This document shows positions 12,792 to 48,418 of a stretch of DNA of 64,000 bases, piece by piece. This DNA is from Terriglobia bacterium. Its GTDB lineage: Bacteria; Acidobacteriota; Polarisedimenticolia; Polarisedimenticolales; CAVOVZ01. The stretch lies in NCBI GenBank assembly GCA_963699985.1, contig CAVOVZ010000013.1:119799-183798 (forward strand). The letters run 5' to 3'. The notes below the pieces were generated by a model, which worked only from the letters and a program-made list of their open reading frames with translations, did not search any database and had not been told where the DNA came from. The stretch's first letter is position 1. The number at the start of each line of letters is the position of its first letter. Position numbers and translations under genes: made by a program.

Positions 12792-12808
12792 CTGTAACGG
12801 AGGGCGCG

Positions 12809-28419: not shown

Positions 28420-28902
28420 GTGACGAGGCCGCCCACGACCCTCGCGACCCGATTCCTCAACGAGCACGGGGTCGCGTACACGGCTCACCTCTACCGGTAC
28501 GAGGATCGCGGCGGCACGCGCGTCTCGGCGCGGGAGCTCGGCGTCCCGGAGCACCAGGTGATCAAGACGATCGTGATGGAGGACGGGGACGGGAATCCCC
28601 TGCTCGTCCTCATGCACGGCAATCGCGAGGTGAGCACGAAGGCCCTCGCGAGGGTTCTCGGATGCAAGTCGATCGCACCGTGCCGCCCCGAGATTGCCTC
28701 GCGCCACACGGGCTACCTCGTCGGGGGAACCTCCCCGTTCGGGACCCGGAAGCGCCTCCCGGTCTACCTGGAGCGGACGATCCTCGATCTCCCGAGGATC
28801 TACGTGAACGGCGGAGCGCGGGGATTCCTCGTGGGGCTGGCGCCGGCCGAGATCTCTCGCCTGCTCGATCCCGTCCTCGTCGAGGTCGGGATCGAGAAGT
28901 GA
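28420..28902 (+). CDS. ybaK: Cys-tRNA(Pro)/Cys-tRNA(Cys) deacylase, YbaK/EbsC family
   Basis: TLATRFLNEHGVAYTAHLY...QVIKTIVM...PLLVLMHGNREVSTKALAR...TGYLVGGTSPFG. Confidence 0.85.
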   Translation: MTRPPTTLATRFLNEHGVAYTAHLYRYEDRGGTRVSARELGVPEHQVIKTIVMEDGDGNPLLVLMHGNREVSTKALARVLGCKSIAPCRPEIASRHTGYLVGGTSPFGTRKRLPVYLERTILDLPRIYVNGGARGFLVGLAPAEISRLLDPVLVEVGIEK

Positions 28903-29059
28903 GGGAGCATGCCGAGGTCGGTCGGCTCCCCGTGGCCGGCCCGAGTCGGCTCGAAGTCCCTGGTTTCGGAGGTTTTCGGTAGGAGTTCGGGGATTGCAAC
29001 TCACTCGGAATCGGCGTATTCAACCTCTGAGAATGCTGCTCTTTCCTGGAGGTGGTGTC

Positions 29060-32000
29060 ATGAGCCCTCGCCTCGTCATCGCTGCGGTCGTCTCGGTGCT
29101 GCTCGCCCTCGCTCCCACCGGGAGGGCGTCCGCCCAGTCCTGCACTCCGGATCCGTTCGAACAGGACGACGCCTGCTCCGCCGCAACCGTCGGCCTCGGC
29201 GGCGGCTCGATCCAGAGTCGCGATTTCTGCGACGACGCCGAGGACTGGCTGGTCTTCCACGCCTGCGCCGGGCGGAGCTACACCATCCGGACTTCCGGGC
29301 TCGGCCCCCTCGCGGACACCGTCCTTGAAATCCACGACCCGTCCTGCCTCGGCCCCCTCGCGCTCGACGACAACGGCGGCGGCGGGCTGGCATCGCGGAT
29401 CGATTGGAGCCCGACGTCCGATGGTGTCTATCGGGTGCGGGTGCGTCAGGCCGACGCGAGTTTCGGCGCGGACCGCGGATACGACGTCTCGCTGACCGGC
29501 GACACCGCTCCCTGCTCCACCTGGGCGCGCAACTACGGGACGAGTCAGCGCGAGGAGGCCGATTTCGCGGAGCCGACTGCCGATGGAGGCTTCGTCGTCC
29601 TCGGGTCGGTGGACGGAGACCTAGTGGTCCTGAAGCTCGACTCGACGGGGGCGGTCCAATGGCAGAAGCGGCTCGGCGGCTCGGGCTACGAACTCCGAAG
29701 GCGATCCGGGAGGTCGCGGGAGGAGGCTACGTCCTGCTGGCCACAACCCAGTCGTTCGGGGCGGGCTGGATCGATGTCTGGATCGTGAAGCTCGACGCCG
29801 CGGGTGGAGTCGTCTGGCAGAAGGCGTACGGAGCGGCCGGTGCCGACTATGCCGCCGGGATCGAGCCGGCGGCCGGAGGCGGCTTCTGGCTCGGCATGAC
29901 CTCCGGGGACAACGGCGTGGTACTGAGGCTCGACGACTCGGGCGGCGTGGTGTGGCAAAAGCGGTACGAGATCGCGAGCCAGCCGTGGACGCTCCAGTCG
30001 CTGGTCCCGACCTCGGACGGAGGACTTCTGCTCGCGGGCGAGCGACGCGTCTCGGACATCGTCACCTGGTGGCTCGATCCGCTCATCCTGAAGCTCGACG
30101 GCTCCGGTGCGATCGTCTGGGGGAAGCGATTCAGCAGCGGGAGTCACCACGGAAACCAGCTCCGTGTGGTCGAGGGTCCGGCAGGAGGCGCCGTCGCTCT
30201 GGTGTCCATCTCCTACGGTACGAGCTCGGCGACGGATCTGGTCGGGCTGGACGCAGCCGGAACGGCGATCTGGAAGCGTCGTCTGGCGACGCCGAGCTGG
30301 GCACAGTCCCTGTGGCGCACGCCGGACGCCGGCTACGTCGTCGCGGTATCCACGCAGACCTCGTACGGCTCCGTGGTCGTCAAGCTGGACGCTTCCGCGA
30401 ACGAGGAGTGGTCGCGGGCCTACGACCGCGGCGGGGTGGCACAGTTCCGCCCCGTGCCCGGCGGAGGGTACGTGCTGGGCGGAACGACTTCGTCGCTCGT
30501 CCCCGCGGGGCACGACGCGGATCTGTGGATCGCCCGCACGGACGACTCGGGCCTGACCGAGTCGCCGTGCCGGATCAGCCAGAGCGTGACCGGGCTTGCA
30601 TCCCCACCCCCCGTGGTCCAGGGAGCCACGGACACGGCGCTGGCGCAGCCAGGCGCCGTTCTGGTGATGCCGACGACGGCAGCCGTGCAGGCGTACGCTG
30701 CGACCTCCGGCGAGTGCGTGAACGCCGATGACGACTCGGACGGGGTCCCGAACGTTTCCGACAACTGCCCGGACGTCCCGAATCCGCTCCAGGACGATCT
30801 GGACCAAGATGGGCTCGGTGACCTCTGCGACGCCGACGACGATGGGGACGGCGTTCCGGACACACAGGACAACTGCCCGCTGGTGTCGAACTCGAGCCAG
30901 GCGGACGCCGACGCGGACGGGGCCGGCGACGCCTGCGATCCCTGCCCGCTCGATGCCGGGAACGACGCGGACGGCGACACGGTGTGCGGCAACCTCGACA
31001 ACTGCCCGCTGGTCTACAACCCCACGCAGGCGGACGCCGACGCCGACGGCATCGGCGATGCCTGCGACACGTGCCCGAGCGACCCGGGAGGAGGCGGACT
31101 CGGCTGCTCCACCTGGGCGCGCAACTACGGGACGAGTCAGCGCGAGGAGGCCGGTTTCGCGGAGCCGACTGCCGATGGAGGCTTCGTCGTCCTCGGGTCG
31201 GTGGGCGGAGACCTAGTGGTCCTGAAGCTCGACTCGACGGGCGCGGTCCAATGGCAGAAGCGGCTCGGCGGCTCGGGCTACGAATCTCCGAAGGCGATCC
31301 GGCAGGTCGCGGGAGGAGGCTACGTCCTGCTGGCCACGACCCAGTCGTTCGGGGCGGGCTGGATCGATGTCTGGATCGTGAAGCTCGACGCCGCGGGTGG
31401 AGTCGTCTGGCAGAAGGCCTACGGAGCGGCCGGTTCCGACTATGCCGCCGGGATCGAGCCGGCGGCCGGAGGCGGCTTCTGGCTCGGCATGACCTCCGGG
31501 GACAACGGCGTGGTGCTGAGGCTCGACGACTCGGGCGGCGTGGTGTGGCAAAAGCGGTACGAGATCGCGAGCCAGCCGTGGACGCTCCAGTCGCTGGTCC
31601 CGACCTCGGACGGAGGACTTCTGCTCGCGGGCGAGCGACGCGTCTCGGACATCGTCACCTGGTGGCTCGATCCGCTCATCCTGAAGCTCGACGGCTCCGG
31701 TGCGATCGTCTGGGGGAAGCGATTCAGCAGCGGGAGTCACCACGGAAACCAGCTCCGTGTGGTCGAGGGTCCGGCAGGAGGCGCCGTCGCTCTGGTGTCC
31801 ATCTCCTACGGTACGAGCTCGGCGACGGATCTGGTCGGGCTGGACGCAGCCGGAACGGCGATCTGGAAGCGTCGTCTGGCGACGCCGAGCTGGGCACAGT
31901 CCCTGTGGCGCACGCCGGACGCCGGCTACGTCGTCGCGGTATCCACGCAGACCTCGTACGGCTCCGTGGTCGTCAAGCTGGACGCTTCCGCGAACGAGGA

Positions 32001-33994
32001 GTGGTCGCGGGCCTACGACCGCGGCGGGGTGGCACAGTTCCGCCCCGTGCCCGGCGGAGGGTACGTGCTGGGCGGAACGACTTCGTCGCTCGTCCCCGCG
32101 GGGCACGACGCGGATCTGTGGATCGCCCGCACGGACGACTCGGGCCTGACCGAGTCGCCGTGCAGGATCAGCCAGAGCGTGACCGGGCTTGCATCCCCAC
32201 CCCCCGTGGTCCAGGGAGCGACGGACACGGCGCTGGCGCAGCCAGGCGCCGTTCTGGTGATGCCGACGACGGCAGCCGTGCAGGCGTACGCTGCGACCTC
32301 CGGCGAGTGCGTGAACGCCGATGACGACTCGGACGGGGTCCCGAACGTTTCCGACAACTGCCCGGACGTCCCGAATCCGCTCCAGGACGATCTGGACCAA
32401 GATGGGCTCGGTGACCTCTGCGACGCCGACGACGATGGGGACGGCGTTCCGGACACACAGGACAACTGCCCGCGCGCGTCGAATCCGAGCCAGACGGACT
32501 CGGACGGCGACGGGATCGGTGACGTCTGCGATCCCTGCCCGCTCGATGCCGGAAACGACGCCGATGGCGACACCGTCTGCGGCAACATCGACAACTGCCC
32601 GCTCGTCTACAACCCCACGCAGGCGGACGCCGACGCCGACGGCATCGGCGATGCCTGCGACACGTGCCCGTTCGACGCGGCCAACGACGCCGACCGGGAC
32701 GGGCGTTGCGCGAACATTGACAACTGCCCGACGGTCGCGAACCCTGGCCAGCAGGACGGCGACGGCGATGGCCGGGGCGATGCGTGCGACAACTGCCCGA
32801 CCGTCCCCAACGCCGACCAGGCAGATCCCGACGGGGACGGCCTGGGCAGCGCGTGCGATCCCTGTCCTCTTTCTCCGGACAACGACGTGGACCACGACGG
32901 GCTCTGCGGCAACGTGGACAACTGCCCGCTCGTGGCGAACCCCGGCCAGCTCGACGCCGACGCCGACGGGATCGGCGATGCCTGCGACGGCTGTCCGCTG
33001 GACCCGCAGAACGATCGGGACGGCGACCGCGCGTGCGGCAACGCGGACAACTGCCCGACTGTCTTCAACCACGCCCAGCGAGACCAGGACGGGGACGGAA
33101 TCGGCGACCTCTGCGACGTCTGCCCCTCCATCTCGAATCCATCGCAGCAGGACGCCGACGGTGACGGCGCGGGCGACGCGTGCGACTGCCAGCCGCAGGA
33201 CCCGGGCGACCGGCGTCCGGGCGACGTGACGGGAGTCCTCGCGCAGAAGGGCGCAGGTGGAACGCTCACGCTTGACCTGGATGCAGTCGGGTGTCGAGGA
33301 CGACGCGTATTCCATCACCAGGGGAACCATCGCCTCGCTCGCCCCGTCGTCGTACGGGGACTGCGTGGCGACGGGTGTCCTCGTGCGCTCGCACGCGGAT
33401 GCGGAGAATCCACCGGCCGGGCAGGGGTTCTTCTACCTGATTCAGGCCCAGAACTTCGACTGCGGCTCCGGCCCGCTCGGGTACACTTCGGCGGAGGCGG
33501 AGAGGGTCAACGGGAGACCGGGAGCCTGCATCGGAGCATCTCACACCGACGTGCACGCCAGCTCGGACACGAAGGTCTACGGCACCGTGAACGGATCCTA
33601 TTCGAGGACGCTCACCTCGGACGATCAGGTCCAATCGATCCGGGAGGTGCTCTCCTCCGGCGGCGGCTCCTCGCGGTACAGCCGGCTGGAGCACAAGTGG
33701 ACCTTCGCGGTGCCGGCCGGTCGCCGCGTCGAGCTGCACGCGGAGGGATTCCGGACCGCGAGCAGCGACGGCGACGACTTCGCCTTCGAGTGGTCGACGA
33801 ACGGGACCACGTTCAACCGGCTGTCGATGACGAGCCTGCCGCTCGCGGACGGCGACGCGGACCTTGCGGGGATGTTCTCGACCGCCGTGTCCGGAACGGT
33901 CACCGTCCGTGTCGTCGATACCGATCGAACTCCGGGCAACCAGCTCCTCGACACGGTGTCGGTAGACGAGCTGTTCCTGCGCGTCGTGCACTGA
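29060..33994 (+). CDS. very large secreted protein: PPC-like domain, two copies of a 531-aa propeller+TSP3 module, extra thrombospondin type-3 repeats, conserved C-terminal domain. The reading frame is broken twice (pseudogene or assembly error).
   Basis: - Start: ATG 29060 follows a GGAGGTGG RBS, and the signal peptide is VIAAVVSVLLALAPTGRASA.
- PPC-like domain: DPFEQDD...DWLVFHACAGRSYTI is a pre-peptidase C-terminal-like pattern.
- Blades: the motif is DGGFVVLGS..GDLVVLKLDSTGAVQWQK.
- TSP3 repeats: many follow DxDxDGxGDxCDxCP.
- Frames: the frame changes 2>1 near 29692 and 1>2 near 33272.
- ORFs: segments 28994..29788, 29404..34167 and 33257..33994 together cover the gene. Confidence 0.75.
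29512..32670 (+). repeat. tandem duplication, 2 x about 1593 bp, inside the TSP3-repeat gene
   Basis: - Unit 1 spans 29512-31103 and unit 2 spans 31104 to about 32670.
- The offset is 1592 nt before, and 1593 nt after, a 1-nt indel at 29692/29693.
- Shadow ORFs 29847..30086 vs 31440..31679 and 30107..30556 vs 31700..32149 are identical.
- About 9 substitutions fall in the first 450 nt, and about 1 kb is near-identical.
- The units diverge in one TSP3 repeat (about 30870-30950). Confidence 0.9.
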
Positions 33995-34025
33995 TCCCGG
34001 CCCGTTTCGGGGCCGATCGGATCGA

Positions 34026-34094
34026 GCGCCGGCGCGCAGGTGCCGGCGCCCGATCTCGATCCCGAGACGGAGGGAGCCGCGTCGAGGCTCCCTC
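34026..34094. terminator. two GC hairpins between convergent giant genes
   Basis: GCGCCGGC-gcgcaggt-GCCGGCGC (34026-34049) and GAGGGAGCC-gcgtcga-GGCTCCCTC (34070-34094). Confidence 0.4.
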
Positions 34095-34153
34095 GCCATC
34101 GCCGTGGGCCGCCCCCGGAGAAGACAGGCGCCGGCCATGGTCTCGCTCTGCGA

Positions 34154-37100
34154 CTACGGACAGGTGAACTCCAGCGATCCGCTGCACCGGGTCACGACCA
34201 TTGAGGTTGCCAGAGGAGCGTCGTTCCCGACATCGTCCACGACCCGAATCGCGAAGTAGTAGGGGGAGCACGGGTTCAGGCTTGCGGCGCTCGCGCAGCC
34301 ATCCGGAGACTCCGGGGAGACGTTCGACTGAATCACGGTAGCGTACGGAAAGCTCAACTCGTCGATCGGCTGGCCCGAGATTCGAACCTCGGCGTTCCAG
34401 GGGATTCCCGACGCGCCGTCGTCGCCGGTACCCGACCACGTCAACACGGCCGTCGTCTTTCCTGCCGCCCCAATCAGCGTCGGGGTCGCGGGAGCGGCGA
34501 CGTCCGGCTGGGAGATCGCGTACTTCGGGTTTCCGTTGGCAGCATCGAAGTAGGCGATCCGGAGGTTGCCCGCATCGTCCGCCGCGAGCGACGTCGTGCT
34601 CGTCGCCTCGACGGCGCCGTCCGCCACGTCGAAGCGCCAGGCGCTGCCGTCCCACTCTGCGACCTTCGGCAGACCGTTGGCGAGGTAGCTGATGCGCGGA
34701 CGTCCCAGACTGTCCAGAGCGATCGAGTTGCCCGCTCCGTTGTCTCCCGTCGACGCGTCGACGGTCTCGACGCTCCAGACGCCGCCCGTCTTCTTCGCCA
34801 TCCGCAGGCTCCTCGTGGTCGTCGAGTAGAAGCTGATCCGCGGAGTGCCCGCGGAATCGATGGCGAGAGAGCTGACATCGGCGCCCGCCGTGTTCGGGAT
34901 GGCTTCGTTGGTCCACGTCCAGTACCCGTACGGCCCCGATGAGCGAAGGTAGTGCAGCTCGGTGGGATTCGTGTTGTGAAGGAAGAACGAGATCGAGGGG
35001 TGGTCGTCGTGGATTCTCAGAGAGGGGCTCGCACCATCGACTGCCTGCACCTCCACCCAGGACGGGGCCTTCGCGAGCAGGCGGACGCGAGTGGAATTGC
35101 AGTCGGCGAGCGCAATGAAGGGCTGACCCTGGCTATCGAGCGCGAGCGACGTCTTGAGCGTGCAGCCCACGCCGGTCACGTCCTCGGTCTGCCAACCGTG
35201 GCCAACCCTGCGGGCGTACCGGACCTCGAGACGCGTCCCATCCACGTAGCTGATGTGTGCGTTCCCGTCGGACCCGAAGACCAGCGAAGGGAACCAGCCG
35301 CTCGTGACGGCTCCGTCCACGGTCTCGGTCCACCACTCCATGGTTCCGTCGGGCGAGGTGTGGCGACGTGCGAACTTCAGGACGCCATGGGTCCGATCGA
35401 AGTAGGCGATCGAGGCGCGGCCCCATGGATCGAGGGCCATCGAGGCGAGCTCGCCGGCAACCCCGGGAGAGCCGTCCACGGTCGTCGCGAGCCACGGGTG
35501 CTGTTGCGCCGCGAAGATCCGCAGATAGGACCCGGTCTGCGCCGTCGACGGAGGCGACCCGACGCGGACGATCCGCACGTGACCCCGGGCCGTCGTCCAG
35601 CCCGAAGGCACCTGAATCGGGACGTCCTGAAGGCTCGTCGAGCTCGCGACGGTCGACCAGGTCGTTCCGCCGTCATGGGACATCTGCACGTTGATCGGAC
35701 CGGCACCGGTCCACCTCACGAGCTGCGGCGTTCCGGGCTGCCACTGCTCGCCCCCCGTCGGGTACATCAGACCCAGGGGCGGCGTCGTCGACTGGTCGCT
35801 GACGAAAACCGGCGTTCGCTGCGGTGAGGGTCCCGATCCGACCTGGCCGTAGGCGTTGCTGCCCCAGCCGAAGATCTGCCCGTTCGACTTCCTTGCCAGC
35901 GAATGGTCCTCGCCTGCCGCGACCGACGTCACACCGGAAAGACCGGCGACTTGCGCCGGGGTGCTTCGGTTCGTCGTCGTCCCGTCGCCCAGCTGTCCGG
36001 CCACGTTCTGCCCCCAGCTCCAGACCGTTCCATCGGATCGGACCGCGAGGCTGAAGGCGGCCCCCGCCGCAACGGAGGTCACCCCGGAGAGTTGAGCGAC
36101 GGGGACCGGGGTCGTCCGCGTCGTGTCCGTCCCGTCGCCGAGCTGTCCATGGTAGTTGTGGCCCCACGCCCGGACCGTTCCGTCCTGGAGTAGCGCCAGA
36201 GTGAAGTACCCGCCGCCGGAAACCCTGACCGCCCCAGCGAGCCCCGGAACCACCCCCGCGACGGACCGATTCGTTTGCCCGCCGTTCCCGAGCTGACCCA
36301 TCACGTTCGATCCCCAGGTCCAGACGCTGCCGTCGCTCTTGATCGCGGCGGCGTGCAAGTAACCCGCACCGATGGAGGCCACCTCGGACAGCCCTGTCAC
36401 CCGAACCGCCGTGGGCCGGTCCACCGTCGTTCCGTCGCCGAGCTGGCCGACCGAGTTGTCCCCCCACGACCAGACGGTTCCGTCGTTCTCGAGCGCGAGC
36501 GTGAAGTTTGCGCCCGAGGCGAGCGCAACGATCCCCGTGAGACCCGAAACCGCGGCCGGCACGCTCCGGGGAGTCGTGGTCCCGTCGCCGAGCTGGCCGT
36601 CGGTGTTGCCGCCCCACGTCCAGACCGTCCCGTCCTGTCGGAGCGCGGCCGTGTGGAAGATGCCGGCCGCCACGGCGACGACATTCGTCAAAGAGCCGGC
36701 CCGGACAGGAGCGTTCCGGTTCGTCGTCGTCCCGTCGGCGAGCTGGCCCATCGTGTTCATTCCCCAGGCCCACACCGTCCCATCCGCGTGCACGGAGACG
36801 CTGTGTCCGTAGCCCGCCTCGAGATCGACGGGAACCGTGGGAACCAGGGTGTGGAAGGATCGCGTGACGCTCCAGTTTCCCAGCACCCCCTGGGCAGTGA
36901 CCGCGCGCACGTGCCAGTAGTACTGAGCCCCGAGGGCGATCGGAGCCCAGCCGAACGTCTGCGTGCTCGGGTATCCGTCGGCCGCGTAGACGATCGTTCC
37001 CGGCGCGAACGACGGCGATGTCGCGACCTCCAGCGAGTAGGTCTGGGCGAGACAGACGCCATCCCAGTCCAGTGCGACGACGGGGGGCGTGACGCGCGCG

Positions 37101-38974
37101 CCGTCGGCAGGAGAGACCAGGGGCGGCCCGAACGGGATATTGTCCGGCGGTGTGGCCGAGATCCATCCCACCGCGCTCGCGGACGCGCCGGAGGCCTGGC
37201 CGTTGCAGTTGAGGGCCTGCACCGTGTAGGTGAACTGGCCGCAGCCTGGGGAGAGGTCGTCGTACGATGCCGACACCGGGTTCGCAATCTGGACGCCGTT
37301 CCGGAGAAGTCGGTACGAGGAAGCCCCGGCGACTGCCGTCCAGGAGAGCCGGACCCTGTCGGCGAACGTGCCCTGCGAGGCGAGCAGACTGGTCGGTGTA
37401 TCGAGGGCGCAGAACTGGATCATGGGGATGATCGCCCCTTGCGCCGGATCGGTCCCGCGGTTGGCGTTCGTCCCGTACAGGCTCAGCTGCCCGTCCGCCG
37501 TCACGTAGGTTCCTCCCGCGGCGGCGAAGCTATAGAAGCTGTCCTGCGGCAGGTTGATCGTCCCGACCCGGGTCACGAGAAGCGAGCCCATCCAGTTTCC
37601 CGCGGCCCGCGGTTGGACGAGATAGAGGCGTGCCCGGTTCGTGCCCTCGGGGACCGTCTGCGTCACCCAGGTCACGATCATGTAGAGTCCCTCGCTGCCG
37701 CACTGCTGAACGAGGTTCACGTTCTGGATCTGACCGAAGCCGACCGGCGTGCTGCAGCTCGGGAAATCCTCCGGGTAGTTGTAGGTCGAGTACGCGTAGG
37801 TTTTCGTGAACGTCGGGTTCCCGACGATCGGCGTGCCGTCGGAGACGTAGAACTGGATCTCCGCCGGACAGTCGCTCTGCACCGCGACGACGTACCGGCC
37901 GTCCTGAAGCTTGGCGACACCTGCGGCCCCCGCCTTCGTGTACTCCGGGCGGAGGATCTGGGCCGACTGGAGCGCGGGCGCAGCCGGGTCGCTCAGGTCG
38001 AAGAACGCCACGCGAGAGCGCGGCCAGACGGTGCTGCTCGGGGCCTCGAGCGGGATGGCGGCGAAGTCCCCGAACACGCTGAGCGCTCCGGCATGCTTGT
38101 AATTGTGGAGCGGGTCGATGATGAAGTGACTCGGGAAGTTGACGATGCCGTTGTCGGGCGCCGGCGGGTAGTTGGGCGTCCAGCATCCGGTGTTGATCTG
38201 CATTTCCGGCAGCCGGGCAAGGAAGAGATGCGAGTCGCCCTGTCCCGTCCCGGTCATGGCCACGTACGGGTCGTTCTTCAGTCGCGCCACCCCTTCGATG
38301 TGGTTCGTGGTCGGGAAGTCGTTCCAGTACTCCCCGTTCGGCATGTTCGACGCACGAACGTAGAGGTGGTCCGAGCTCGGCCCCAGTCCGAAGAAGGAGC
38401 ATTCGACGTCGGGAACGCACGCGTTGTAGTCGGTCCGATCCACGTTGTGCACGGACACGACCTTGCGTTTGCCGTTGAAATGAGGATCGGCCGAGATCGC
38501 GTCCAGGATCACGCTGTAGGGCGCGTCGGAGCGAGACACGTGGTCGTCCTTCCCCTGGATCTCGAGGGTTAGCGACGTGACGTCTCCGGGGTAGAACCAG
38601 AGCGTCACGCTGTTCTTGAAGAAGTCGTCGTAGGGGCCGCGTACCCACCCTTTCGTCGTGTCGTCGACGGTGACCCGAACCTGCACCACCTGCGTGACGC
38701 AGGGGGCGTACGAGCACCCCAGACTCACCGTCGTCGTGGTCGTCAGGCCCATCTTGTCGGTGAACAGACCGCTCGACGGCTCGGCGCAGAGGTCGGTGCA
38801 CACGGCCTCGGGGTACTCCGGCTCCTCGAGGAGGATCGCCCCGTCGCCTGGGCTCTCCTCGACCGGGAATTGCCGCGGCATCGCACCGGCAGGCTCCAGC
38901 GCCGACAGCAAGCCGCAGAGCGTGATGCCCAGGACTCGGCCAGACCAGCTTCGGATTCCCGCGGAGTTCCTCAT
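34154..38974 (-). CDS. giant secreted multidomain protein B: unknown roughly 500-aa head, two FN3, RCC1 propeller, second propeller-like repeat domain, FN3 (paralogue of protein A)
   Basis: - Start: ATG 38974 follows an AAGGAG RBS, and the signal peptide is VLGITLCGLLSALEPAGA.
- Head: I could not assign the N-terminal domain.
- FN3: the motifs are SWTAVAGASSYRLL and LDWDGV...YYWHVRA.
- RCC1: seven repeats span about nt 35830-36830.
- C-terminal repeats: they follow IAYFDRTHGVLKFA...W.TETVD.
- End: the protein finishes ...CSGSLEFTCP. Confidence 0.85.
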   Translation of the reverse strand: MRNSAGIRSWSGRVLGITLCGLLSALEPAGAMPRQFPVEESPGDGAILLEEPEYPEAVCTDLCAEPSSGLFTDKMGLTTTTTVSLGCSYAPCVTQVVQVRVTVDDTTKGWVRGPYDDFFKNSVTLWFYPGDVTSLTLEIQGKDDHVSRSDAPYSVILDAISADPHFNGKRKVVSVHNVDRTDYNACVPDVECSFFGLGPSSDHLYVRASNMPNGEYWNDFPTTNHIEGVARLKNDPYVAMTGTGQGDSHLFLARLPEMQINTGCWTPNYPPAPDNGIVNFPSHFIIDPLHNYKHAGALSVFGDFAAIPLEAPSSTVWPRSRVAFFDLSDPAAPALQSAQILRPEYTKAGAAGVAKLQDGRYVVAVQSDCPAEIQFYVSDGTPIVGNPTFTKTYAYSTYNYPEDFPSCSTPVGFGQIQNVNLVQQCGSEGLYMIVTWVTQTVPEGTNRARLYLVQPRAAGNWMGSLLVTRVGTINLPQDSFYSFAAAGGTYVTADGQLSLYGTNANRGTDPAQGAIIPMIQFCALDTPTSLLASQGTFADRVRLSWTAVAGASSYRLLRNGVQIANPVSASYDDLSPGCGQFTYTVQALNCNGQASGASASAVGWISATPPDNIPFGPPLVSPADGARVTPPVVALDWDGVCLAQTYSLEVATSPSFAPGTIVYAADGYPSTQTFGWAPIALGAQYYWHVRAVTAQGVLGNWSVTRSFHTLVPTVPVDLEAGYGHSVSVHADGTVWAWGMNTMGQLADGTTTNRNAPVRAGSLTNVVAVAAGIFHTAALRQDGTVWTWGGNTDGQLGDGTTTPRSVPAAVSGLTGIVALASGANFTLALENDGTVWSWGDNSVGQLGDGTTVDRPTAVRVTGLSEVASIGAGYLHAAAIKSDGSVWTWGSNVMGQLGNGGQTNRSVAGVVPGLAGAVRVSGGGYFTLALLQDGTVRAWGHNYHGQLGDGTDTTRTTPVPVAQLSGVTSVAAGAAFSLAVRSDGTVWSWGQNVAGQLGDGTTTNRSTPAQVAGLSGVTSVAAGEDHSLARKSNGQIFGWGSNAYGQVGSGPSPQRTPVFVSDQSTTPPLGLMYPTGGEQWQPGTPQLVRWTGAGPINVQMSHDGGTTWSTVASSTSLQDVPIQVPSGWTTARGHVRIVRVGSPPSTAQTGSYLRIFAAQQHPWLATTVDGSPGVAGELASMALDPWGRASIAYFDRTHGVLKFARRHTSPDGTMEWWTETVDGAVTSGWFPSLVFGSDGNAHISYVDGTRLEVRYARRVGHGWQTEDVTGVGCTLKTSLALDSQGQPFIALADCNSTRVRLLAKAPSWVEVQAVDGASPSLRIHDDHPSISFFLHNTNPTELHYLRSSGPYGYWTWTNEAIPNTAGADVSSLAIDSAGTPRISFYSTTTRSLRMAKKTGGVWSVETVDASTGDNGAGNSIALDSLGRPRISYLANGLPKVAEWDGSAWRFDVADGAVEATSTTSLAADDAGNLRIAYFDAANGNPKYAISQPDVAAPATPTLIGAAGKTTAVLTWSGTGDDGASGIPWNAEVRISGQPIDELSFPYATVIQSNVSPESPDGCASAASLNPCSPYYFAIRVVDDVGNDAPLATSMVVTRCSGSLEFTCP

Positions 38975-39113
38975 CGCTGCTCCTTTCTTCTGCCGGCGGG
39001 ACTCGAGAACGAGGGCGCCCGAGCCCCCCGCCGACACCTGTCCCTCACGTAGATAGATGGAACGGACAGGAATCGAGGAGCCGCTGAAGAAACCGCTCCG
39101 GAAGGAAGGCAGG

Positions 39114-42100
39114 TCAGCGACCCGCCCCGTAGACGGTCAGTCCCGCCCAGTAGAATGGGTGGTCGAGAGCTCGGCCGTCCGCGCCGCGAACCTCTCCGCG
39201 CAGCATCGCGCGCTGGAGCCGTCCCAGCGCCGCCGCCGGCCGCAGGTCCGGAGAGAGCTTCCGGTAGAGCTCGGGAAGCACGTCCGCCGACGTGGCATCG
39301 TCCATCTCCCACAGGGATGCGACCACGGAGCTCGCACCCGCCTTCAGAAAGGCGCGGACGAGCCCCTCCCGCTCGTCGCCCGGGGCGTCCCCGCCGGTCA
39401 GGCCGACATCGGCCCCCGTGTCGCAGCCGCTGAGGACCACCAGCCTTGCCGCGATCGGGCGCGCAGCGATCTCCTCGGCGGTGAGTCCGCCATCCGTGCC
39501 GCCGTCGGAGGCCAGCTCGATCCGGGAACGTGATGGGGTCAAGCGATCGGTTCGCCCGTGAGCCGCCAGGTGGATCCACTCGCTCGAGGGTGCGCGCGCC
39601 CGGTAGGCAGTCTCCGTCGCCTCCGCGCCGGTGCGGGTCCACGCGGCGCCCGGCACGAGCGCGGCCACGCGGAGGACTTCGGCCGCGGCGCCGGGAAGCC
39701 GGGTGCCCCTGCCGCCGATGTCCGGGTCGCCGAGAGCCACCATCCCGCGCGCGGACGATCCCGCGCGGCGTCGAGAGAAGAGCGCCTCGGCCGCGGGCAG
39801 GAGGGAGACGTTCCGTCCCTCGATCATCGGCCGCCCGTCGAACCGGAGGGCCGGGAAGGGGACGGAGTGGAGCCACTCGTTGGCGACCACCAGCACCTCG
39901 TCGGCGTTCGCGAGATCCGTGGCCAGGGGATCCAGAAGAGCAGCACCGAGGCGAGTCATCGCCTGGCGCCACGCGGCGGTCACCGGAGCGTCGGCGGGGT
40001 CGGGCCGACCGGGGTACCGGGCCAGGTCGGCGATTTCCCGAACGACGGCAGGGGGGGCGGTCAATCGCCGTGCCTTCAATCCGTCGCGTCTGGCGACGAA
40101 CGCCACGACGCGGTCGTTCAGAACGAAGTAGTCGACCAGGACCTCTCGATCGCGAAGAACCGCGCGGAGCTGAGACGAGGGGACGACGGGGAGCGACCAC
40201 GGCGGGATGGGCTCCCCGCCCCGCGTGCCGGCGTCGTCTTCGAAGGAGGGGGGGACGAGCTTCTGCGCGAAGTCCCGTGCCTTGCCGAGCCTCGCGACGC
40301 GGTACGCGTTCTCGACCTCGCCGTTGTCCAGGTAGAGACGGACCAGTTCCCGATACGGCTCGATCCGGTCGTCCAGAATCGCGGCCCGCCAGGGCGGACG
40401 CCGCACGCCGCTGCGGGCCCGCTCGACCTCGGCCACGGCGCGCTCGCAACGTCGGATCGCACCTGCGCGGTCGCCCTCGAGAGCCGACAGACGCGCGCTC
40501 AGGAATTGGTACCGCCATTCGTTGCTCGCGCCCCGCTTCGTCGGACCCAGGGGAGCGAGCCGATCCAGCAGGCCCCTCGCCGCGGGCAGGTTGCCGGAGA
40601 GGAGATGGGCATGGGCCGCGAGGAGCTCGCACTCCGTCCACCCGGCGGGGTTCCTTTGCTCGTGGTAGAGCGTCGCGGCCACTTCGAGTCTCGACACGGC
40701 TGCCTCCGCCCCGGCGGCTCCCACTCGCAGGTCGAGATTCGCCAGGTCGATCAGGCTCGTGGCCCGGTCCACCGCCTGCCCGGTCTCGGTGGAGCACCGG
40801 AGCGCTTCCTCCAGCGCCTTCCGAGCTTCCTCGCGGTCTCCCGAGCGCTCTCGGACGAAACCCAGGCTGCGAAGCACCCGGCAACGTCCCAGCTCGCTCT
40901 TCGTCTTCCCGAGGAGCGACGAGGCGGACTCGAGCTCCGCGAGAGCCTCGGGGAAGTCTCCCAGAAGGGCGAGGTTCGCTCCCAGGTAGTAGCGCCGCCA
41001 CGCCAGCAGGGACAGATCGGATGACTGCGTCGCCGCCTCGACGGCCGCGCGCAGATCGACCATTGCGTCGTCGTAGCGGCCGAGATCGAACAGCGCGGAC
41101 GCGCGGCACTCGAGAATGATGCTGAGCAGACCGAGACCTCCGGAGGCCCGGACCGAAGAAACCTCCGCATCGAGGATTGGAATCGCCGCTTCCGCATTCC
41201 CCTCTTCCACGAGCGTCATGGTCCGGATGCATGCGACCGTTGCCTGGAGGTCGGCCGACTCCGCGCTCGCCGCGAGCTTCCGCGCGCGTTCCAGCCACCT
41301 GTGCCCTTCTTCCGTGCGGCCCAGCTCGCGCAGGACCAGCGACAAGGACGCGGACGCGTCTGCCTCCGTGGAAGCGACTCCGGCCCGCCGGGCGATCTCC
41401 GCCGCGCGGCGACACTCGGCGACGGCACCGGCCGGATTGCCGCGATCACGATGGAGCCGACACAGGTTGAGCCGCTCGAGCGCCTCGGTCTCCGCGTCGC
41501 CGCTTTCTCGTGCGATCGCCGTCGCCTGCTGGTGGAGGGACAACTCTGCGTCGGAATCCCCCTGGGCTCCCACGATCACCGCGAGGGTCCCGAGGGATCT
41601 CCCCTCCTCCGCCCGGTCTCCCAGCTCTCGGGTCAGCACCAGGGACCGCTCGATGGCGGATCTCGCGGAGTCGAGATCCCCGACCGCGCGATAGGCGACC
41701 CCCAGGTTGTTCTCGACCACCGAGAGGAGTCGAAGATCCCCGACGCGCTCCACGACGTCCCGGGCCTCTCGCAGCGCGCCGATCGCCTTCTCGCCACCGA
41801 AGATGTTGACCTTCACGCCGGCAATGGCGTTCGTGCACCAGGCCACCTCGCGCTCGTCACCGATCCTCTCGAACGTGGCGAGGGCCGATTCGAATTTCTC
41901 GAGGGCGCTCTCGGGGCGCGCGTCGCTGTAGTCCTCCTTCGCCGCCTTCTTCCGCTGGACGGCCTCGGCCCGCTCCGCGCGCTCCTCGGGGGTCCACGCC
42001 CGGAAGACCGCGATCCGGCCCGCGGGCCGCCGGTCGCCGAAGACGTCCGCGTACGCCGCTGCCAGGGACTCGGCAAGACGCAGCGAGGTCGCGTCGCCGA

Positions 42101-42350
42101 GCGCCCCCAGGCGGTGCATGGCCTCGTAGGCGGCGGCGCGATCGGCGCGCACCAGGGCGTGGATCGTCCGCGCGCCTTCCTTCGGCGGGGCGCGTCGGAG
42201 CCGCTCGATCAGGTCGTCCGCCTGCTTCTCTCCCGCAAGGCAGGGAAGGACCAGGAGCGCCGCCGACACCGAGGCTGCGAGCAAACCGGCGAACGATGCG
42301 AGACTCAGGCGCGTTGCCGTGGTGCCGACGCGTTCGAACGCTCCGTTCAT
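39114..42350 (-). CDS. exported TPR-repeat CHAT-domain (caspase-like) protease
   Basis: ATG 42350 overlaps the anti-sigma stop (ATGA). The N-terminal hydrophobic segment is LSLASFAGLLAASVSAALLVLPCLAG. About 600 aa of TPR-like helical repeats follow. The C-terminal CHAT domain has WIHLAAHG (His) and LVVLSGCDTG (Cys). The 477 upstream codons of ORF 39114..43781 are rejected. Confidence 0.9.
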   Translation of the reverse strand: MNGAFERVGTTATRLSLASFAGLLAASVSAALLVLPCLAGEKQADDLIERLRRAPPKEGARTIHALVRADRAAAYEAMHRLGALGDATSLRLAESLAAAYADVFGDRRPAGRIAVFRAWTPEERAERAEAVQRKKAAKEDYSDARPESALEKFESALATFERIGDEREVAWCTNAIAGVKVNIFGGEKAIGALREARDVVERVGDLRLLSVVENNLGVAYRAVGDLDSARSAIERSLVLTRELGDRAEEGRSLGTLAVIVGAQGDSDAELSLHQQATAIARESGDAETEALERLNLCRLHRDRGNPAGAVAECRRAAEIARRAGVASTEADASASLSLVLRELGRTEEGHRWLERARKLAASAESADLQATVACIRTMTLVEEGNAEAAIPILDAEVSSVRASGGLGLLSIILECRASALFDLGRYDDAMVDLRAAVEAATQSSDLSLLAWRRYYLGANLALLGDFPEALAELESASSLLGKTKSELGRCRVLRSLGFVRERSGDREEARKALEEALRCSTETGQAVDRATSLIDLANLDLRVGAAGAEAAVSRLEVAATLYHEQRNPAGWTECELLAAHAHLLSGNLPAARGLLDRLAPLGPTKRGASNEWRYQFLSARLSALEGDRAGAIRRCERAVAEVERARSGVRRPPWRAAILDDRIEPYRELVRLYLDNGEVENAYRVARLGKARDFAQKLVPPSFEDDAGTRGGEPIPPWSLPVVPSSQLRAVLRDREVLVDYFVLNDRVVAFVARRDGLKARRLTAPPAVVREIADLARYPGRPDPADAPVTAAWRQAMTRLGAALLDPLATDLANADEVLVVANEWLHSVPFPALRFDGRPMIEGRNVSLLPAAEALFSRRRAGSSARGMVALGDPDIGGRGTRLPGAAAEVLRVAALVPGAAWTRTGAEATETAYRARAPSSEWIHLAAHGRTDRLTPSRSRIELASDGGTDGGLTAEEIAARPIAARLVVLSGCDTGADVGLTGGDAPGDEREGLVRAFLKAGASSVVASLWEMDDATSADVLPELYRKLSPDLRPAAALGRLQRAMLRGEVRGADGRALDHPFYWAGLTVYGAGR

Positions 42351-42979
42351 CGGATCTCGAAGGCGATCAGGCGAGTCTCCGCGACGGATCGGTCTCCCCG
42401 CATCGCGCGCACCCTCCAGAGAAGAGCTGCCGGTCGTCGCGCTCCGGGCGGCACCGGCCAGACCGCCTCGGTGATGGGAGGACGCGCCTCGAGCGTCGCG
42501 AGCGTGGACCCATCCGGGCTGACCAACGTCACGAGATACCGATCGGCGTCGGGACGAGGAGTCCAGCGGAACGCGATCTCGTTCTCCCGAGCCACGGTCC
42601 CGGCCGCGGGTGCGAGGGACACCATGCCGTCTCCCGCGCCCGCACGGTATTGCGTCTCGGAAGCCGGGACTGCGCCCTGGCGTACTCCATGAAGGCCGGC
42701 GATCAGGGCGGCCACCAGGACGGCTGCCGCGGCCCCCCCCAGGACGACTCGCGTCGATGGAACCCTGCGCGATGCCGCTTGCGCCTTGCCCATGGCGAGC
42801 AGCTCCGGTGGAACCGGCTCGCCGGCGTCCGTCATGCGAAGCTCCGTCACTCCCGCCCGGCAGTCCGCGCATCGGGCCAGATGCCGCTCGAACTCTCCTG
42901 CGGCCTCGTCGCCCAGCGTGCCGTCGAGGTACGCCGCGGTGGTCAGCTCGTCGGGATGGCGTGCGGGGCCGGATCTCAC
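42347..42979 (-). CDS. anti-sigma factor (zf-HC2), single-pass membrane protein with an extracytoplasmic domain
   Basis: GTG 42979 overlaps the sigma-factor stop (GTGA). AAYLDGTLGDEAAGEFERHLARCADCRAGV contains Hx3Cx2C. The TM segment is VVLGGAAAAVLVAALIAGL, followed by a roughly 120-aa C-terminal beta-rich domain. Confidence 0.8.
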   Translation of the reverse strand: MRSGPARHPDELTTAAYLDGTLGDEAAGEFERHLARCADCRAGVTELRMTDAGEPVPPELLAMGKAQAASRRVPSTRVVLGGAAAAVLVAALIAGLHGVRQGAVPASETQYRAGAGDGMVSLAPAAGTVARENEIAFRWTPRPDADRYLVTLVSPDGSTLATLEARPPITEAVWPVPPGARRPAALLWRVRAMRGDRSVAETRLIAFEIR

Positions 42980-43908
42980 GTCTGCGCCTCCCAGGACGAC
43001 CAGCCCGCTCCGAACGCTCCCTCCAGGTCGTCTCGTGTGATCCGTGCCTCGCCGAGGGCGGAGCGGATCGCGGCCAGCGCGTCGCGCGTCGTGCGCTCGA
43101 TCTCCGCCCCGGACACCCCGATCGCCTTCGCCGCGGTCCCGACGTCGAGGCCGTCCCGAAACCGGACGGCCAGGACGAGCTGCTGCCGGGGGGCCAGCCC
43201 GGCGACGGCTCGTGCGAATGCCCGCTCGGCCTGTCGCTCCTCCAGGCTCCGCTCGGGGTCCCGCCCCGAGGCCGCGAGCGCGAACGTCCGGGAAGTCTGC
43301 TCGGCGACGACGCTGACGCAATCGATGGGGATCGTCGGCTGGCGCCACGTCCACCGCGACAGCAGCCGCCAGCGCTGGCTCGGAGACAGGGAGCGCTCGA
43401 CCCGCGCCACGCGCTCGGCGAGCTCCTGCGGCTCCAACCGCACACCGTGGCGCCTCTCCAGCCGCTCGCGGACCTCGTCGAGCGGTCTCCCGTCTCGAAA
43501 GCGGTAGGCGACGATCCGGCGATCGATCGCGTCCAGCCTCGCCATGCTCGAGAAGGCCCGGTAGCGGCCGCGTCGCGCGCGCTCGTGGTCGAGGACGAGA
43601 TTGCGGACGACCACGGCAAGGTACGTGGAGAACCTGCACGGGGCCTCCGGTCGATACCGGTAGCGCCGCACGCGGCGCATCCCGTCGCTGCGCAGGGCGG
43701 CGCAGACGAAGAGGAAAAGGTCCATCCGCTCGTCGTACGTCCGAGCGAACGGGCGGATGGCGGCGAGAATCGTCGCCGCATGCTCGTCGAGGAAGGCGTC
43801 CCACGTGAGGTCGCCGGCGGGACGGTGCGCCCCGGAGTCCACGACGGCGCCTTCGTCGATCGGACCCCCGCCCCTGAACTGGAGGATCGAGCCTCTGAAC
43901 GCGGACAT
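42976..43908 (-). CDS. sigma-70 family (ECF-like) RNA polymerase sigma factor with an extra region-4-like insert
   Basis: Region 2 reads DLFLFVCAALRSD...FSTYLAVVVRNLVLDHERAR. Region 4 reads LAPRQQLVLAVRFRDGLDVGTAAKAIGVSGAEIERTTRDALAAIRSAL. A second similar segment reads LDAIDRRIVAYRFRDGRPLDEVRERLERRHGVRLEPQELAERVARVERSL. The start is uncertain (ATG 43908 or TTG 43944). Confidence 0.8.
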   Translation of the reverse strand: MSAFRGSILQFRGGGPIDEGAVVDSGAHRPAGDLTWDAFLDEHAATILAAIRPFARTYDERMDLFLFVCAALRSDGMRRVRRYRYRPEAPCRFSTYLAVVVRNLVLDHERARRGRYRAFSSMARLDAIDRRIVAYRFRDGRPLDEVRERLERRHGVRLEPQELAERVARVERSLSPSQRWRLLSRWTWRQPTIPIDCVSVVAEQTSRTFALAASGRDPERSLEERQAERAFARAVAGLAPRQQLVLAVRFRDGLDVGTAAKAIGVSGAEIERTTRDALAAIRSALGEARITRDDLEGAFGAGWSSWEAQT

Positions 43909-44385
43909 CGGGCAACATATACCCCATGAGGGGACGAGCGACAACGCGCGGGGAGGCTTGCGCCGCTGTCCGGCGCTCCGCAGATGCGCTGCGAGTCGGC
44001 CGCCGCCCTGTTAGGAGGATCCTCCGGAGCCCGGAGGGGTCTGAATCGGCCCCGGGCCTTGAAGTCGCACGGGGCGCGAAATCGAGGCGACGCGCTGCGC
44101 AGCGAACGGGAACCGTTATCTCGCGCGCGGGCCGGACCGACCCCTGGCGCCCGGAGAAAAGAGGTTGACCGGAGCAGGTGTGTCCGTGCAAGATCGCGCC
44201 GATTCGCGGGAACGGGAGGTTCTCGTGGGCGGTTCTCGTCGACTTTGGCGTGGGCTTGGCGACCTACCGATCAGAGGCTGCGGCGACGACATCGCCGATC
44301 CACCGTCTCAGTGGCCATGGACGAATGCCCGGCGCGTCGCGCAGGGGAAACGCAGGACCATTCGATTCCGATCCAGGGAGGGGCT

Positions 44386-47252: not shown

Positions 47253-47262
47253 GGAGGGCGCC

Positions 47263-47949: not shown

Positions 47950-48418
47950 CGGCGACCATCCGACGCTGATCCTGGGGATCGGCAATCTCCTGATGGGCGA
48001 CGAGGGCGTCGGCGTCGAGGCCGTTCGCCGCGTGGCGGAGGCCGGCGTTCCGGACGGGGTGGAATGCCTCGACGGAGGCACCGGGTCCTTCGCGCTGCTC
48101 GAGCCGATGTGCAGGGCCGGGAGGATCGTCCTGATCGATGCCGCTTCCGACGGGGCCCGGCCCGGCACCGTCCGTAGGCTCACGCCGCGCTTCTCGACGG
48201 ACTACCCGCGCTCGCTCACCGCTCACGACATCGGTCTGAAGGATCTCATCGACGCGTTCCACCTGTTGGGGGATCCGCCGGAGGTCGTACTGTTCGCGAT
48301 ATCCGTCGTCTCGCCGTTGGCGCCCGGGCTGGGCCTCTCGAAGGACGTCGACGCCGCGCTCCCGGACGTGGTCCGAATGGTGCTCGCGGAGGCCGCAGGC
48401 TCCGCCAGCGCCGGGTGA
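47936..48418 (+). CDS. hyaD: hydrogenase maturation endopeptidase (HyaD/HupD/HybD family)
   Basis: TLILGIGNLLMGDEGVGVEAV...LIDA...HDIGL matches the family. Confidence 0.9.
   Translation: MRSSSGDHPTLILGIGNLLMGDEGVGVEAVRRVAEAGVPDGVECLDGGTGSFALLEPMCRAGRIVLIDAASDGARPGTVRRLTPRFSTDYPRSLTAHDIGLKDLIDAFHLLGDPPEVVLFAISVVSPLAPGLGLSKDVDAALPDVVRMVLAEAAGSASAG

What the first reader, a model, noticed from the sequence alone, without database searches (positions are those of the whole stretch)
29512..32670. Near-identical 1.59 kb in-gene tandem duplication of a propeller plus TSP3 module
- Two consecutive 531-codon units begin at CSTWARNYGTSQREEA (nt 29513 and 31105).
- The first roughly 450 nt carry about 9 substitutions.
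- The next roughly 1 kb is almost identical; I saw only two synonymous differences, and shadow ORFs on other frames are letter-identical.
- The units diverge again in one TSP3 repeat.

This mosaic of identity suggests a very recent duplication or ongoing gene conversion that is expanding a calcium-binding surface protein. Alternatively it could be a collapsed or expanded assembly of a repeat.
Basis: seen in the sequence. Interest (0 to 1): 0.6.

Follow-up and report, generated by a model that had tools for sequence, protein, structure and literature searches.

The report
Tandem module duplication in a frameshifted gene
A 1.6 kb stretch encoding a seven-repeat propeller-like module plus calcium-binding repeats really is present twice in a row inside one secreted-protein gene. 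As assembled, that gene is broken by two frameshifts, so this is an ordinary recent domain duplication in a probably decaying or locally mis-called gene.

Summary
The repeat is real. Window 29512-31077 matches 31104-32670 (period 1593 nt, 531 codons) with 31 substitutions and one 1-nt gap.

Identity is a significant mosaic:
- First 411 nt: 8 substitutions, dS 0.04.
- Next 958 nt: 2 synonymous changes, including a 648-nt perfect run.
- One 131-nt TSP3 patch: 21 substitutions, dS about 0.5.
- Final 66 nt: identical.

A unique in-frame junction of about 26 nt (SDPGGGGLG) means at least two copies must exist, so an assembler did not invent the duplication.

Copy 1 lacks one base after 29692, so the two units are in different frames. 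A second frameshift lies near 33271, before a conserved C-terminal domain. The restored 1644-aa protein is signal peptide, PPC-like domain, two (seven-repeat module + TSP3) units, more TSP3 repeats, and a conserved C-terminal domain.

No close orthologue exists in the collections searched. Distant relatives that start with a PPC domain carry one propeller, so the second module looks derived.

Best reading: a genuine intragenic duplication shaped by gene conversion, in a gene that is either a young pseudogene or has local consensus errors. Only reads can decide between those. It is a known kind of event and of low interest.

The parts
29060..33994 (+). Whole gene as reconstructed (1644 aa after restoring one base after 29692 and removing one base at about 33271). 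As assembled it is split over frames 2, 1 and 2.
   Evidence: Three-frame translation and GC3 phase. The reconstruction has no internal stop. The start is an ATG preceded by GGAGGTGG.
29060..29137 (+). Predicted Sec signal peptide MSPRLVIAAVVSVLLALAPTGRASAQ (inferred from sequence features only)
   Evidence: a basic N-terminal region, a hydrophobic core, and ASA before Q.
29138..29511 (+). PPC-like (pre-peptidase C-terminal) domain
   Evidence: Pfam PPC E = 6e-4, 21.1 bits, below the 25.9-bit cut-off. It is 49-59% identical to the N-termini of homologues such as P0016, P0019 and P0031; several of these carry PF04151 in the precomputed annotation.
29512..31103 (+). Copy 1 of the unit: seven-repeat propeller-like module (29513-30574), linker, TSP3 repeats (30724-31077), junction linker
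29692..29693 (+). Frameshift 1: one base (T) missing relative to copy 2 (GAA-CTCC against GAATCTCC). The upstream frame then stops at 29788.
   Evidence: The resulting 242-aa fragment 29060-29788 is a called protein in the source assembly (P0287).
29923..30570 (+). 648-nt stretch perfectly identical to 31516-32163 (core of the putative conversion tract)
30881..31011 (+). Divergent TSP3 patch of copy 1 (21 substitutions against 32474-32604; dS 0.49, dN 0.11)
   Evidence: No better donor exists anywhere in the window.
31078..31103 (+). Unique in-frame junction encoding SDPGGGGLG between TSP3 of copy 1 and the propeller of copy 2
   Evidence: It occurs once in the window even allowing 3 mismatches.
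31104..32696 (+). Copy 2 of the unit, intact frame (propeller-like module 31105-32166, TSP3 from 32317). Homology to copy 1 ends at 32670-32680.
32671..33180 (+). Rest of the TSP3 array, not duplicated (period 129/198 nt, 65-76% identical repeats)
33268..33272 (+). Frameshift 2: one extra base in ACGCTTGACCTGG. The protein reads ...GGTLTL then TWMQSGVEDDAYSITRG in the next frame.
   Evidence: Homologues run straight across this point (P0041; 46 family members; L031 and L032 in a single frame).
33181..33994 (+). Conserved C-terminal region of about 270 aa with no Pfam or NCBIfam match
   Evidence: 46 relatives, the better ones 44-58% identical

Best explanation
**What the gene is.** It encodes a secreted multidomain protein: signal peptide, PPC-like domain, seven-repeat propeller-like module, a TSP3 array carrying DxDxDG motifs (the calcium-binding motif of thrombospondin type 3 repeats), and a conserved C-terminal domain.

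**What happened to it.**
- The segment from the first codon of the propeller to the end of the fifth DxDxDG motif was duplicated in tandem.
- The duplication is 1593 nt, in frame, and joined by a short glycine-rich filler.
- The two copies then exchanged sequence by intragenic gene conversion or unequal recombination. This left a near-perfect core of about 1 kb, an older 5' flank of 0.4 kb at 2% divergence, and one 131-nt TSP3 patch. That patch either escaped homogenisation or was overwritten from another TSP3 repeat outside the window.

**State of the deposited sequence.** The gene carries a -1 frameshift in copy 1 and a +1 frameshift in front of the C-terminal domain. It is either a young pseudogene or has two local consensus errors.

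**Shown:** the repeat, the mosaic, the junction, both frameshifts and the domain content.
**Inferred:** conversion as the mechanism, secretion, calcium binding, and that one module is ancestral.
For: - **Repeat geometry and differences:**
- **Heterogeneity of divergence**: dS is 0.038 in the 5' flank, 0.008 in the core, 0.49 in the patch and 0 in the tail. The permutation test gives p < 1e-5.
- **Unique junction:**
- **Frameshift 1:** both flanking frames match copy 2 and the repeat consensus.
- **Frameshift 2:** P0041 is 55% identical over the whole C-terminal region and crosses the site. The best family members align over 97-100% of the query. L031 and L032 are in a single frame at this point.
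- **Domain content:** TSP_3 E = 1.1e-52. Module homologues have E-values down to 6e-127, and 28 of 71 hit DUF5122.
- **One module is likely ancestral:** P0011, P0013, P0016, P0019, P0021, P0026, P0029, P0030 and P0057 are 640-730 aa with an N-terminal PPC domain and one propeller. P0041 is propeller-TSP3-C-terminal domain with one propeller.
- **No comparable repeat in relatives:** none of the 120 best relatives has a module-level internal repeat above 68% identity.
- **The frameshifts are not general noise:**
  - All other sizeable genes of the window give full-length ORFs or Pfam matches, including ORFs of 2026, 1627 and 1555 aa.
  - If two random indels fell in roughly 55 kb of coding sequence, both would land in this 4.9 kb gene with probability about 0.008 (my own estimate).
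Against: - No reads are available. No independent assembly or close orthologue was found, so copy number, the fine pattern of identity and both indels rest on one consensus sequence.
- Consensus building or polishing over near-identical repeats can erase true differences or introduce indels.
- The propeller fold is not confirmed by a model: pLDDT was 44 and 41.
- The module itself hits no Pfam or NCBIfam family above threshold.
- The order of events cannot be resolved. It could be an old duplication later homogenised, or a recent duplication later patched.
Confidence: 0.7

Rival explanations
1. Assembly or consensus artefact. The two copies exist, but the near-perfect core and both frameshifts come from collapsing or polishing a repeat. 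The true gene would be intact, the copies may differ evenly, and copy number may exceed two.
For: - Frameshift 1 lies inside the repeat.
- The other frame breaks seen in the window lie in repeat-prone insertion-sequence remnants.
- Related genes on other metagenomic contigs also carry indels: one in L030, several in L033.
- The source is a single 525,642-nt contig from NCBI/ENA with no replicate.
Against: - Neither indel is in a homopolymer.
- Frameshift 2 lies outside any repeat present in the window.
- Diagnostic substitutions sit 42 nt and 18 nt either side of frameshift 1, so reads there should map uniquely.
- The rest of the window shows no frameshifts in long ORFs.
- The junction and both flanks of each copy are unique sequence.
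Confidence: 0.3
2. Ancient two-module architecture under concerted evolution. The gene always had two propeller-TSP3 modules, as many family members have two propellers. Repeated conversion keeps them alike, and the diverged TSP3 patch (dS about 0.5) shows the true age.
For: - Two-propeller relatives are common (P0003-P0010, P0024, P0048, P0056).
- The patch dS of 0.49 contrasts with the core dS of 0.008.
- A dedicated glycine-rich linker joins the modules in frame.
Against: - In two-propeller relatives that carry a PPC domain, it lies between the propellers. Their copies are at most 68% identical.
- Most relatives that start with a PPC domain, and the closest C-terminal relative P0041, have one propeller.
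- Homology ends abruptly inside the TSP3 array rather than at a domain boundary.
- The divergent patch is short and flanked on both sides by identity, which also fits a single ectopic conversion.
Confidence: 0.15
3. The frameshifts are functional: either programmed ribosomal frameshifting or a phase-variable on/off switch.
For: - The gene needs a -1 and a +1 shift at defined places.
- A homologue on a good-quality contig (L030) also changes frame in the same linker before the C-terminal domain.
Against: - There is no slippery heptamer, homopolymer or short tandem repeat at either site: CTACGAACTCCGA and ACGCTTGACCTGG.
- The L030 shift is about 25 codons away, at a missing G in a G run.
- L031, L032 and P0041 are in one frame at this point.
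- L033, from an evidently error-rich assembly, shifts at many places.
Confidence: 0.03

Closest known systems
Highly identical tandem domain repeats in bacterial surface proteins ('Periscope Proteins', Whelan et al. 2021, PMC8201768; examples include Rib, Esp, CdrA and SasG-like proteins)
   Same: - Long repeats within a secreted or surface protein gene are nearly identical at the DNA level.
- Such identity is thought to permit intragenic recombination that gains, loses and homogenises repeats.
   Different: - There are only two copies here.
- The unit is very large (531 aa) and holds a globular seven-repeat module plus calcium-binding repeats, not a single rod-forming domain.
- No length variation between strains could be examined.
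- No cell-wall or membrane anchor was recognised.
- The gene is frameshifted as assembled.
DUF5122 (PF17164) beta-propeller proteins; some relatives are labelled 'delta-60 repeat protein' by JGI
   Same: - The module's homologues (E-values down to 6e-127) are labelled delta-60 repeat proteins by JGI, and 28 of 71 hit PF17164.
- They share the repeat motif DGG-hydrophobic-x-G ... W-hydrophobic-x-K-L-D-x-x-G-x-x-x-W-x-K with a period of about 50 aa.
   Different: - The window's own module scores below all Pfam and NCBIfam thresholds.
- It has seven repeats, whereas the alignment consensus of relatives shows eight.
- The fold is not confirmed.
Thrombospondin type 3 repeats (PF02412)
   Same: The gene has 14 DxDxDG-type motifs with the flanking cysteines typical of TSP3. 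The Pfam match is very strong.
   Different: This is a bacterial array fused to a propeller-like module and to an uncharacterised C-terminal domain. Calcium binding is inferred, not tested.
Concerted evolution of tandem paralogous segments by gene conversion
   Same: Blocks of near-identity sit next to blocks of higher divergence with sharp boundaries, and the heterogeneity is significant.
   Different: This is within one gene. No donor for the divergent patch was found in the window.

Membership tests
TSP type 3 repeat (PF02412) | Match to the Pfam model above its gathering score | tested here: met
   E = 1.1e-52, 175.8 bits against a cut-off of 25, 8 stretches. There are 14 DxDxDG-type motifs in the reconstructed protein.
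DUF5122 beta-propeller (PF17164) | Match of the module itself to the family model | tested here: not met
   PF17164 is not listed for the module at E <= 0.1 or E <= 0.001. The only NCBIfam hit is a weak SBBP lipoprotein match, 25.7 bits against a cut-off of 400.
DUF5122 beta-propeller (PF17164) | Homology to recognised members and a repeated blade motif | tested here: met
   Relatives have E-values from 1e-40 to 6e-127 and some are labelled delta-60 repeat proteins by JGI. 28 of 71 hit PF17164. The module has seven 46-55 aa repeats with a shared motif.
DUF5122 beta-propeller (PF17164) | Beta-propeller fold | tested here: inconclusive
   Two AlphaFold2 runs gave pLDDT 44.5 and 41.2. No PDB relative was found by sequence.
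PPC domain (PF04151) | Match above the gathering score | tested here: inconclusive
   21.1 bits against a cut-off of 25.9, E = 6e-4, covering 2-69 of 70 profile positions. The domain is 49-59% identical to the N-termini of homologues, several of which carry PF04151 in the precomputed annotation.
Periscope-type variable-length surface protein | Long tandem repeats that are highly identical at the DNA level | tested here: met
   Two 1593-nt units are 98% identical overall and share a 648-nt perfect run.
Periscope-type variable-length surface protein | Repeat number varies between strains | not testable with these tools
   No close relative or second assembly exists in the genome, metagenome or protein collections.
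Periscope-type variable-length surface protein | Repeats are single folded domains forming an elongated stalk, in a protein held at the cell surface | tested here: not met
   The unit is a multidomain block of 531 aa. No anchor or sorting domain was found by Pfam or NCBIfam.
Pseudogene | Reading frame broken relative to intact homologues or paralogous copy | tested here: met
   A -1 shift after 29692 relative to copy 2. A +1 shift near 33271 relative to P0041, L031, L032 and members of the C-terminal domain family.
Pseudogene | The lesions are present in the organism's DNA and are not consensus errors | not testable with these tools
   No reads are available. The source contig is known only as a 525,642-nt NCBI/ENA record.
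Programmed frameshift or phase-variable gene | Slippery sequence or simple-sequence tract at the shift site | tested here: not met
   The sites read CTACGAACTCCGAAGG and ACGCTCACGCTTGACCTGG. Neither has a homopolymer, heptamer or short tandem repeat.

The most novel reading that the evidence does not exclude
The two near-identical modules could act as a recombination substrate that changes both valency and expression state.
- Unequal recombination between the copies would add or remove whole ligand-binding propeller-plus-calcium-stalk modules. This would be a module-level analogue of Periscope length variation.
- A crossover within the first 181 nt of the unit would delete copy 1 together with its frameshift. 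That would restore an open frame across that site, giving an on/off switch by repeat recombination.
- Even then, the second frameshift near 33271 would still have to be an error or be corrected separately.
Probability: 0.05. Interest if true: 0.5.

Novelty: new member of a known kind. Interest (0 to 1): 0.2.

Why it matters
If confirmed in reads, this is a clean, datable example of how large multidomain blocks are added to bacterial extracellular proteins and then homogenised by conversion. It sits in an unstudied protein family that combines propeller modules, TSP3 arrays and an uncharacterised C-terminal domain.

It does not open a new question. Intragenic repeat expansion and concerted evolution in surface proteins are well documented, and this copy appears non-functional as assembled.

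The practical lesson is for annotation. The long ORF 29404-34167 is not the gene. The real gene is 29060-33994, read across two frame changes.

Tried and rejected
- **Source genome or a close relative.**
  - Protein search with the N-terminal 682 aa gave at best 39-50% identity.
  - Scans of genome contigs and metagenome contigs gave only 24-38% identity.
  - Exact look-ups of the hydrogenase large subunit and its 100% match P0167 were not on record.
  - The nearest relative by that subunit (92%, L034) has a different upstream neighbourhood.
- **Structure of the module.** Two AlphaFold2 runs, one with full-length homologues and one with trimmed homologues, gave pLDDT 44.5 and 41.2. They were unusable, so no fold search was run. 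A PDB sequence search found nothing.
- **Donor for the divergent TSP3 patch.** No sequence in the window matches either version better than the two match each other.
- **Recurrent frameshift before the C-terminal domain.** L030 also shifts frame in that linker. However, L031, L032 and P0041 do not, and L033 shifts at many places. I treat this as coincidence or assembly noise.
- **Programmed frameshifting or phase variation.** Rejected on sequence context.
- **Promoter and terminator scan of 28800-34300.** Nothing was found.
- **First self-BLAST for internal repeats in homologues.** It returned nothing because contained alignments were culled. I redid it with sliding segments.
Full report
**1. 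The observation**

The repeat finder reports families of direct repeats with a spacing of 1592-1593 nt across 29512-32678. A position-by-position comparison shows 40-50 matches per 50 nt at offset 1592 from 29500 to about 29692. From about 29700 to 31100 the match is at offset 1593.

The MAFFT alignment of the two units has one gap. Copy 1 reads GAA-CTCC where copy 2 reads GAATCTCC. A whole-window self-BLAST gives 29512-31087 against 31104-32680, 97.8% identity, one gap. This is the only repeat above 80% identity in the 64 kb window.

The 1-nt gap was missed.

**2. Distribution of differences**

There are 31 substitutions up to 31077:

| Segment (copy 1) | Length | Substitutions | dS / dN (Nei-Gojobori) |
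|---|---|---|---|
| 29512-29922 | 411 nt | 8 (4 synonymous), plus the gap | 0.038 / 0.013 |
| 29923-30880 | 958 nt | 2, both synonymous | 0.008 / 0 |
| 30881-31011 | 131 nt | 21 | 0.49 / 0.11 |
| 31012-31077 | 66 nt | 0 | 0 / 0 |

A perfect run of 648 nt (29923-30570) never occurred in 100,000 random placements of the 31 differences. With only the first 1368 nt and 10 differences, p = 0.017. A single duplication followed by uniform divergence is therefore rejected. At least two exchange events are needed, or an artefact of consensus building.

Neither version of the divergent patch has a better match elsewhere in the window.

**3. The junction**

Homology starts exactly at the first codon of the propeller. 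It is preceded by ...TGDTAP in copy 1 and by ...GGGGLG in copy 2. It ends inside the TSP3 array after CDTCP.

Between the copies lie about 26 nt, AGCGACCCGGGAGGAGGCGGACTCGG(C), encoding SDPGGGGLG. This sequence occurs once in the window even allowing three mismatches.

This sequence links the end of a TSP3 repeat to a propeller start. Each copy also has one unique flank. A single-copy gene could therefore not have been expanded into this arrangement by an assembler. More than two copies, with interior ones collapsed, remains possible.

**4. The gene is broken as assembled**

Three-frame translation and GC3 phase show coding in three stretches:
- Frame 2 from ATG 29060 (after GGAGGTGG) to about 29692.
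- Frame 1 from 29693 to about 33270.
- Frame 2 again to the stop at 33994.

The listed ORF 29404-34167 has out-of-frame, arginine-rich translation at both ends. Adding the missing T and removing one base at 33271 gives a 1644-aa product with no internal stop.

*Frameshift 1.* Both flanking frames match copy 2 and the repeat motif. The upstream frame stops at 29788. That 242-aa fragment is a called protein of the source assembly (P0287, on a 525,642-nt NCBI/ENA contig).

*Frameshift 2.* It interrupts a conserved C-terminal region.
- P0041 aligns at 55% identity over residues 1-269, across the site.
- 46 relatives were found, the better ones 44-58% identical and the best covering 97-100% of the query.
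- The homologous genes in L031 and L032 are in one frame there.

Neither site has a homopolymer, slippery heptamer or short tandem repeat. Programmed frameshifting and slipped-strand phase variation are therefore unlikely.

**5. Is the window generally error-prone?**

A codon-usage gene map gives about 40 genes with normal spacing. Pfam matches are essentially full-length for most of them, and ORFs of 2026, 1627 and 1555 aa are uninterrupted.

The other frame breaks I saw are in transposase remnants:
- An IS1634-like gene is split at about 11475.
- A DDE_Tnp_1 gene is split at 3441-3523.

Two random indels would both land in this 4.9 kb gene with probability of roughly 0.008, by my own estimate. 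The lesions are therefore gene-specific. Either the gene is decaying, or the consensus is locally poor around repeats. Frameshift 1 is inside the repeat. Frameshift 2 is not in any repeat visible in the window. I cannot decide between these without reads.

**6. What the protein is**

- **Signal peptide:** a plausible Sec signal peptide, inferred from sequence features only.
- **PPC-like domain:** Pfam 21.1 bits, just under the cut-off. It is 49-59% identical to the N-termini of relatives, several of which are annotated with PF04151.
- **404-aa module:** seven repeats of 46-55 aa sharing a ...DGG..V.G......W..KLD..G...W.K motif.
  - Homologues reach E = 6e-127 and some are labelled 'delta-60 repeat protein' by JGI. 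28 of 71 hit PF17164, the DUF5122 beta-propeller model.
  - The module itself hits no model.
  - Two structure predictions failed.
- **TSP3 array:** Pfam E = 1.1e-52. There are 14 DxDxDG-type motifs in the whole protein, five in each duplicated unit.
- **C-terminal domain:** about 270 aa with no family assignment. It recurs behind TSP3 arrays with different N-terminal propellers: DUF5122-like in P0041 and L031, faint BNR matches in L030, and Kelch-type in L032 and L033.

An extracellular, calcium-dependent binding role is inferred from the domain content only.

**7. One or two modules ancestral?**

No orthologue closer than about 50% identity was found in 5.8 billion protein clusters, GTDB representative genomes or JGI metagenomes.

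Among distant relatives:
- Short proteins (640-730 aa) that start with a PPC domain carry one propeller: P0011, P0013, P0016, P0019, P0021, P0026, P0029, P0030, P0057.
- The best C-terminal relative, P0041, has one propeller.
- Two-propeller relatives have the PPC domain between the propellers, when they have one at all.
- No relative has module-level internal identity above 68%.

The organism's nearest relative by hydrogenase large subunit (92% identity, L034) lacks this neighbourhood. The second module is therefore most simply a recent, lineage-specific gain.

**8. Context**

- Upstream on the + strand: an operon-like run (rubrerythrin, CCG/4Fe-4S protein, DUF3501, a sugar-phosphate-isomerase-like TIM barrel, an unknown gene), then a YbaK-type editing-domain gene ending at 28902.
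- Downstream, convergent: a 1627-aa RCC1-repeat protein, then a CHAT-TPR protein and a sigma-factor-like gene.
- Further downstream on the + strand: a [NiFe] hydrogenase operon from 43984.
- No promoter-like or terminator-like sites were found around the gene.
- Named proteins close to the hydrogenase large subunit (about 82% identity) come from Acidobacteriota, Blastocatellia and candidate division KSB1 assemblies. The phylum is not settled.

**9. Verdict**

The gene-conversion reading is reasonable. The idea of a surface protein being expanded is undercut by two frameshifts.

The event belongs to a well-known class: intragenic tandem duplication and concerted evolution in repetitive extracellular proteins, compare PMC8201768. 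It is unusual only in the size and composition of the unit. Interest is low.

Noticed in passing
window 10756-12035 (- strand): An IS1634-like transposase is split into a DUF4277 N-terminal ORF (11460-12035) and a second ORF (10756-11475, DDE region by eye) in another frame. It looks like a frameshifted or decayed insertion sequence.
   Followed up: partly
window 2863-4026 (+ strand): A DDE_Tnp_1 transposase fragment (profile positions 28-111 of 200) is followed by a second short ORF. This is probably another degraded insertion sequence.
   Followed up: no
window 4225-10305 and 34154-39037 (both - strand): Two giant paralogous secreted proteins (2026 and 1627 aa) carry RCC1-repeat propellers and share 68.5% nucleotide identity over 2.4 kb. 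The larger one carries an HEWGH motif that suggests a zinc metalloprotease.
   Followed up: partly
window 33181-33994; also L030 8001-8813, L031 8001-8933, L032 6001-6852, L033 6001-6687: An uncharacterised C-terminal region of about 270 aa has no Pfam or NCBIfam match, with 46 relatives found. It recurs after TSP3 arrays behind different N-terminal propeller types (DUF5122-like, faint BNR, Kelch-type).
   Followed up: partly
L030 about 8020-8060: A homologous gene on an otherwise well-behaved 108 kb ENA contig also changes frame in the linker between the TSP3 array and the C-terminal domain. The cause is a missing G in a G run, about 25 codons upstream of the window's second frameshift.
   Followed up: yes
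window 39114-43908 (- strand): A sigma-factor-like gene (Sigma70_r4; 42976-43908), a likely anti-sigma factor with an HC2-type zinc-finger motif (about 42347-42980) and a large TPR-CHAT protein (39114 onward) lie in a row.
   Followed up: no
window 43984-48418 (+ strand): A [NiFe] hydrogenase operon: small subunit, large subunit (45537-47252), b-type cytochrome (47263-47949), and an ORF (47936-48418) in the position of the HycI maturation protease of L034. The large subunit is 92% identical to one on a JGI contig with a different upstream neighbourhood.
   Followed up: partly
window 12788-13419 (+ strand): A pair of small ORFs looks like a VapB/VapC (PIN-domain) toxin-antitoxin pair. They lie in a stretch (about 12000-13800) with weak coding signal next to the insertion-sequence remnant.
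   Followed up: no
The 242-aa N-terminal fragment of the target gene (P0287) is in the protein collection. It did not appear among the hits when the search used a query containing its first 211 residues. Absence from that search is therefore not proof of absence.
   Followed up: no
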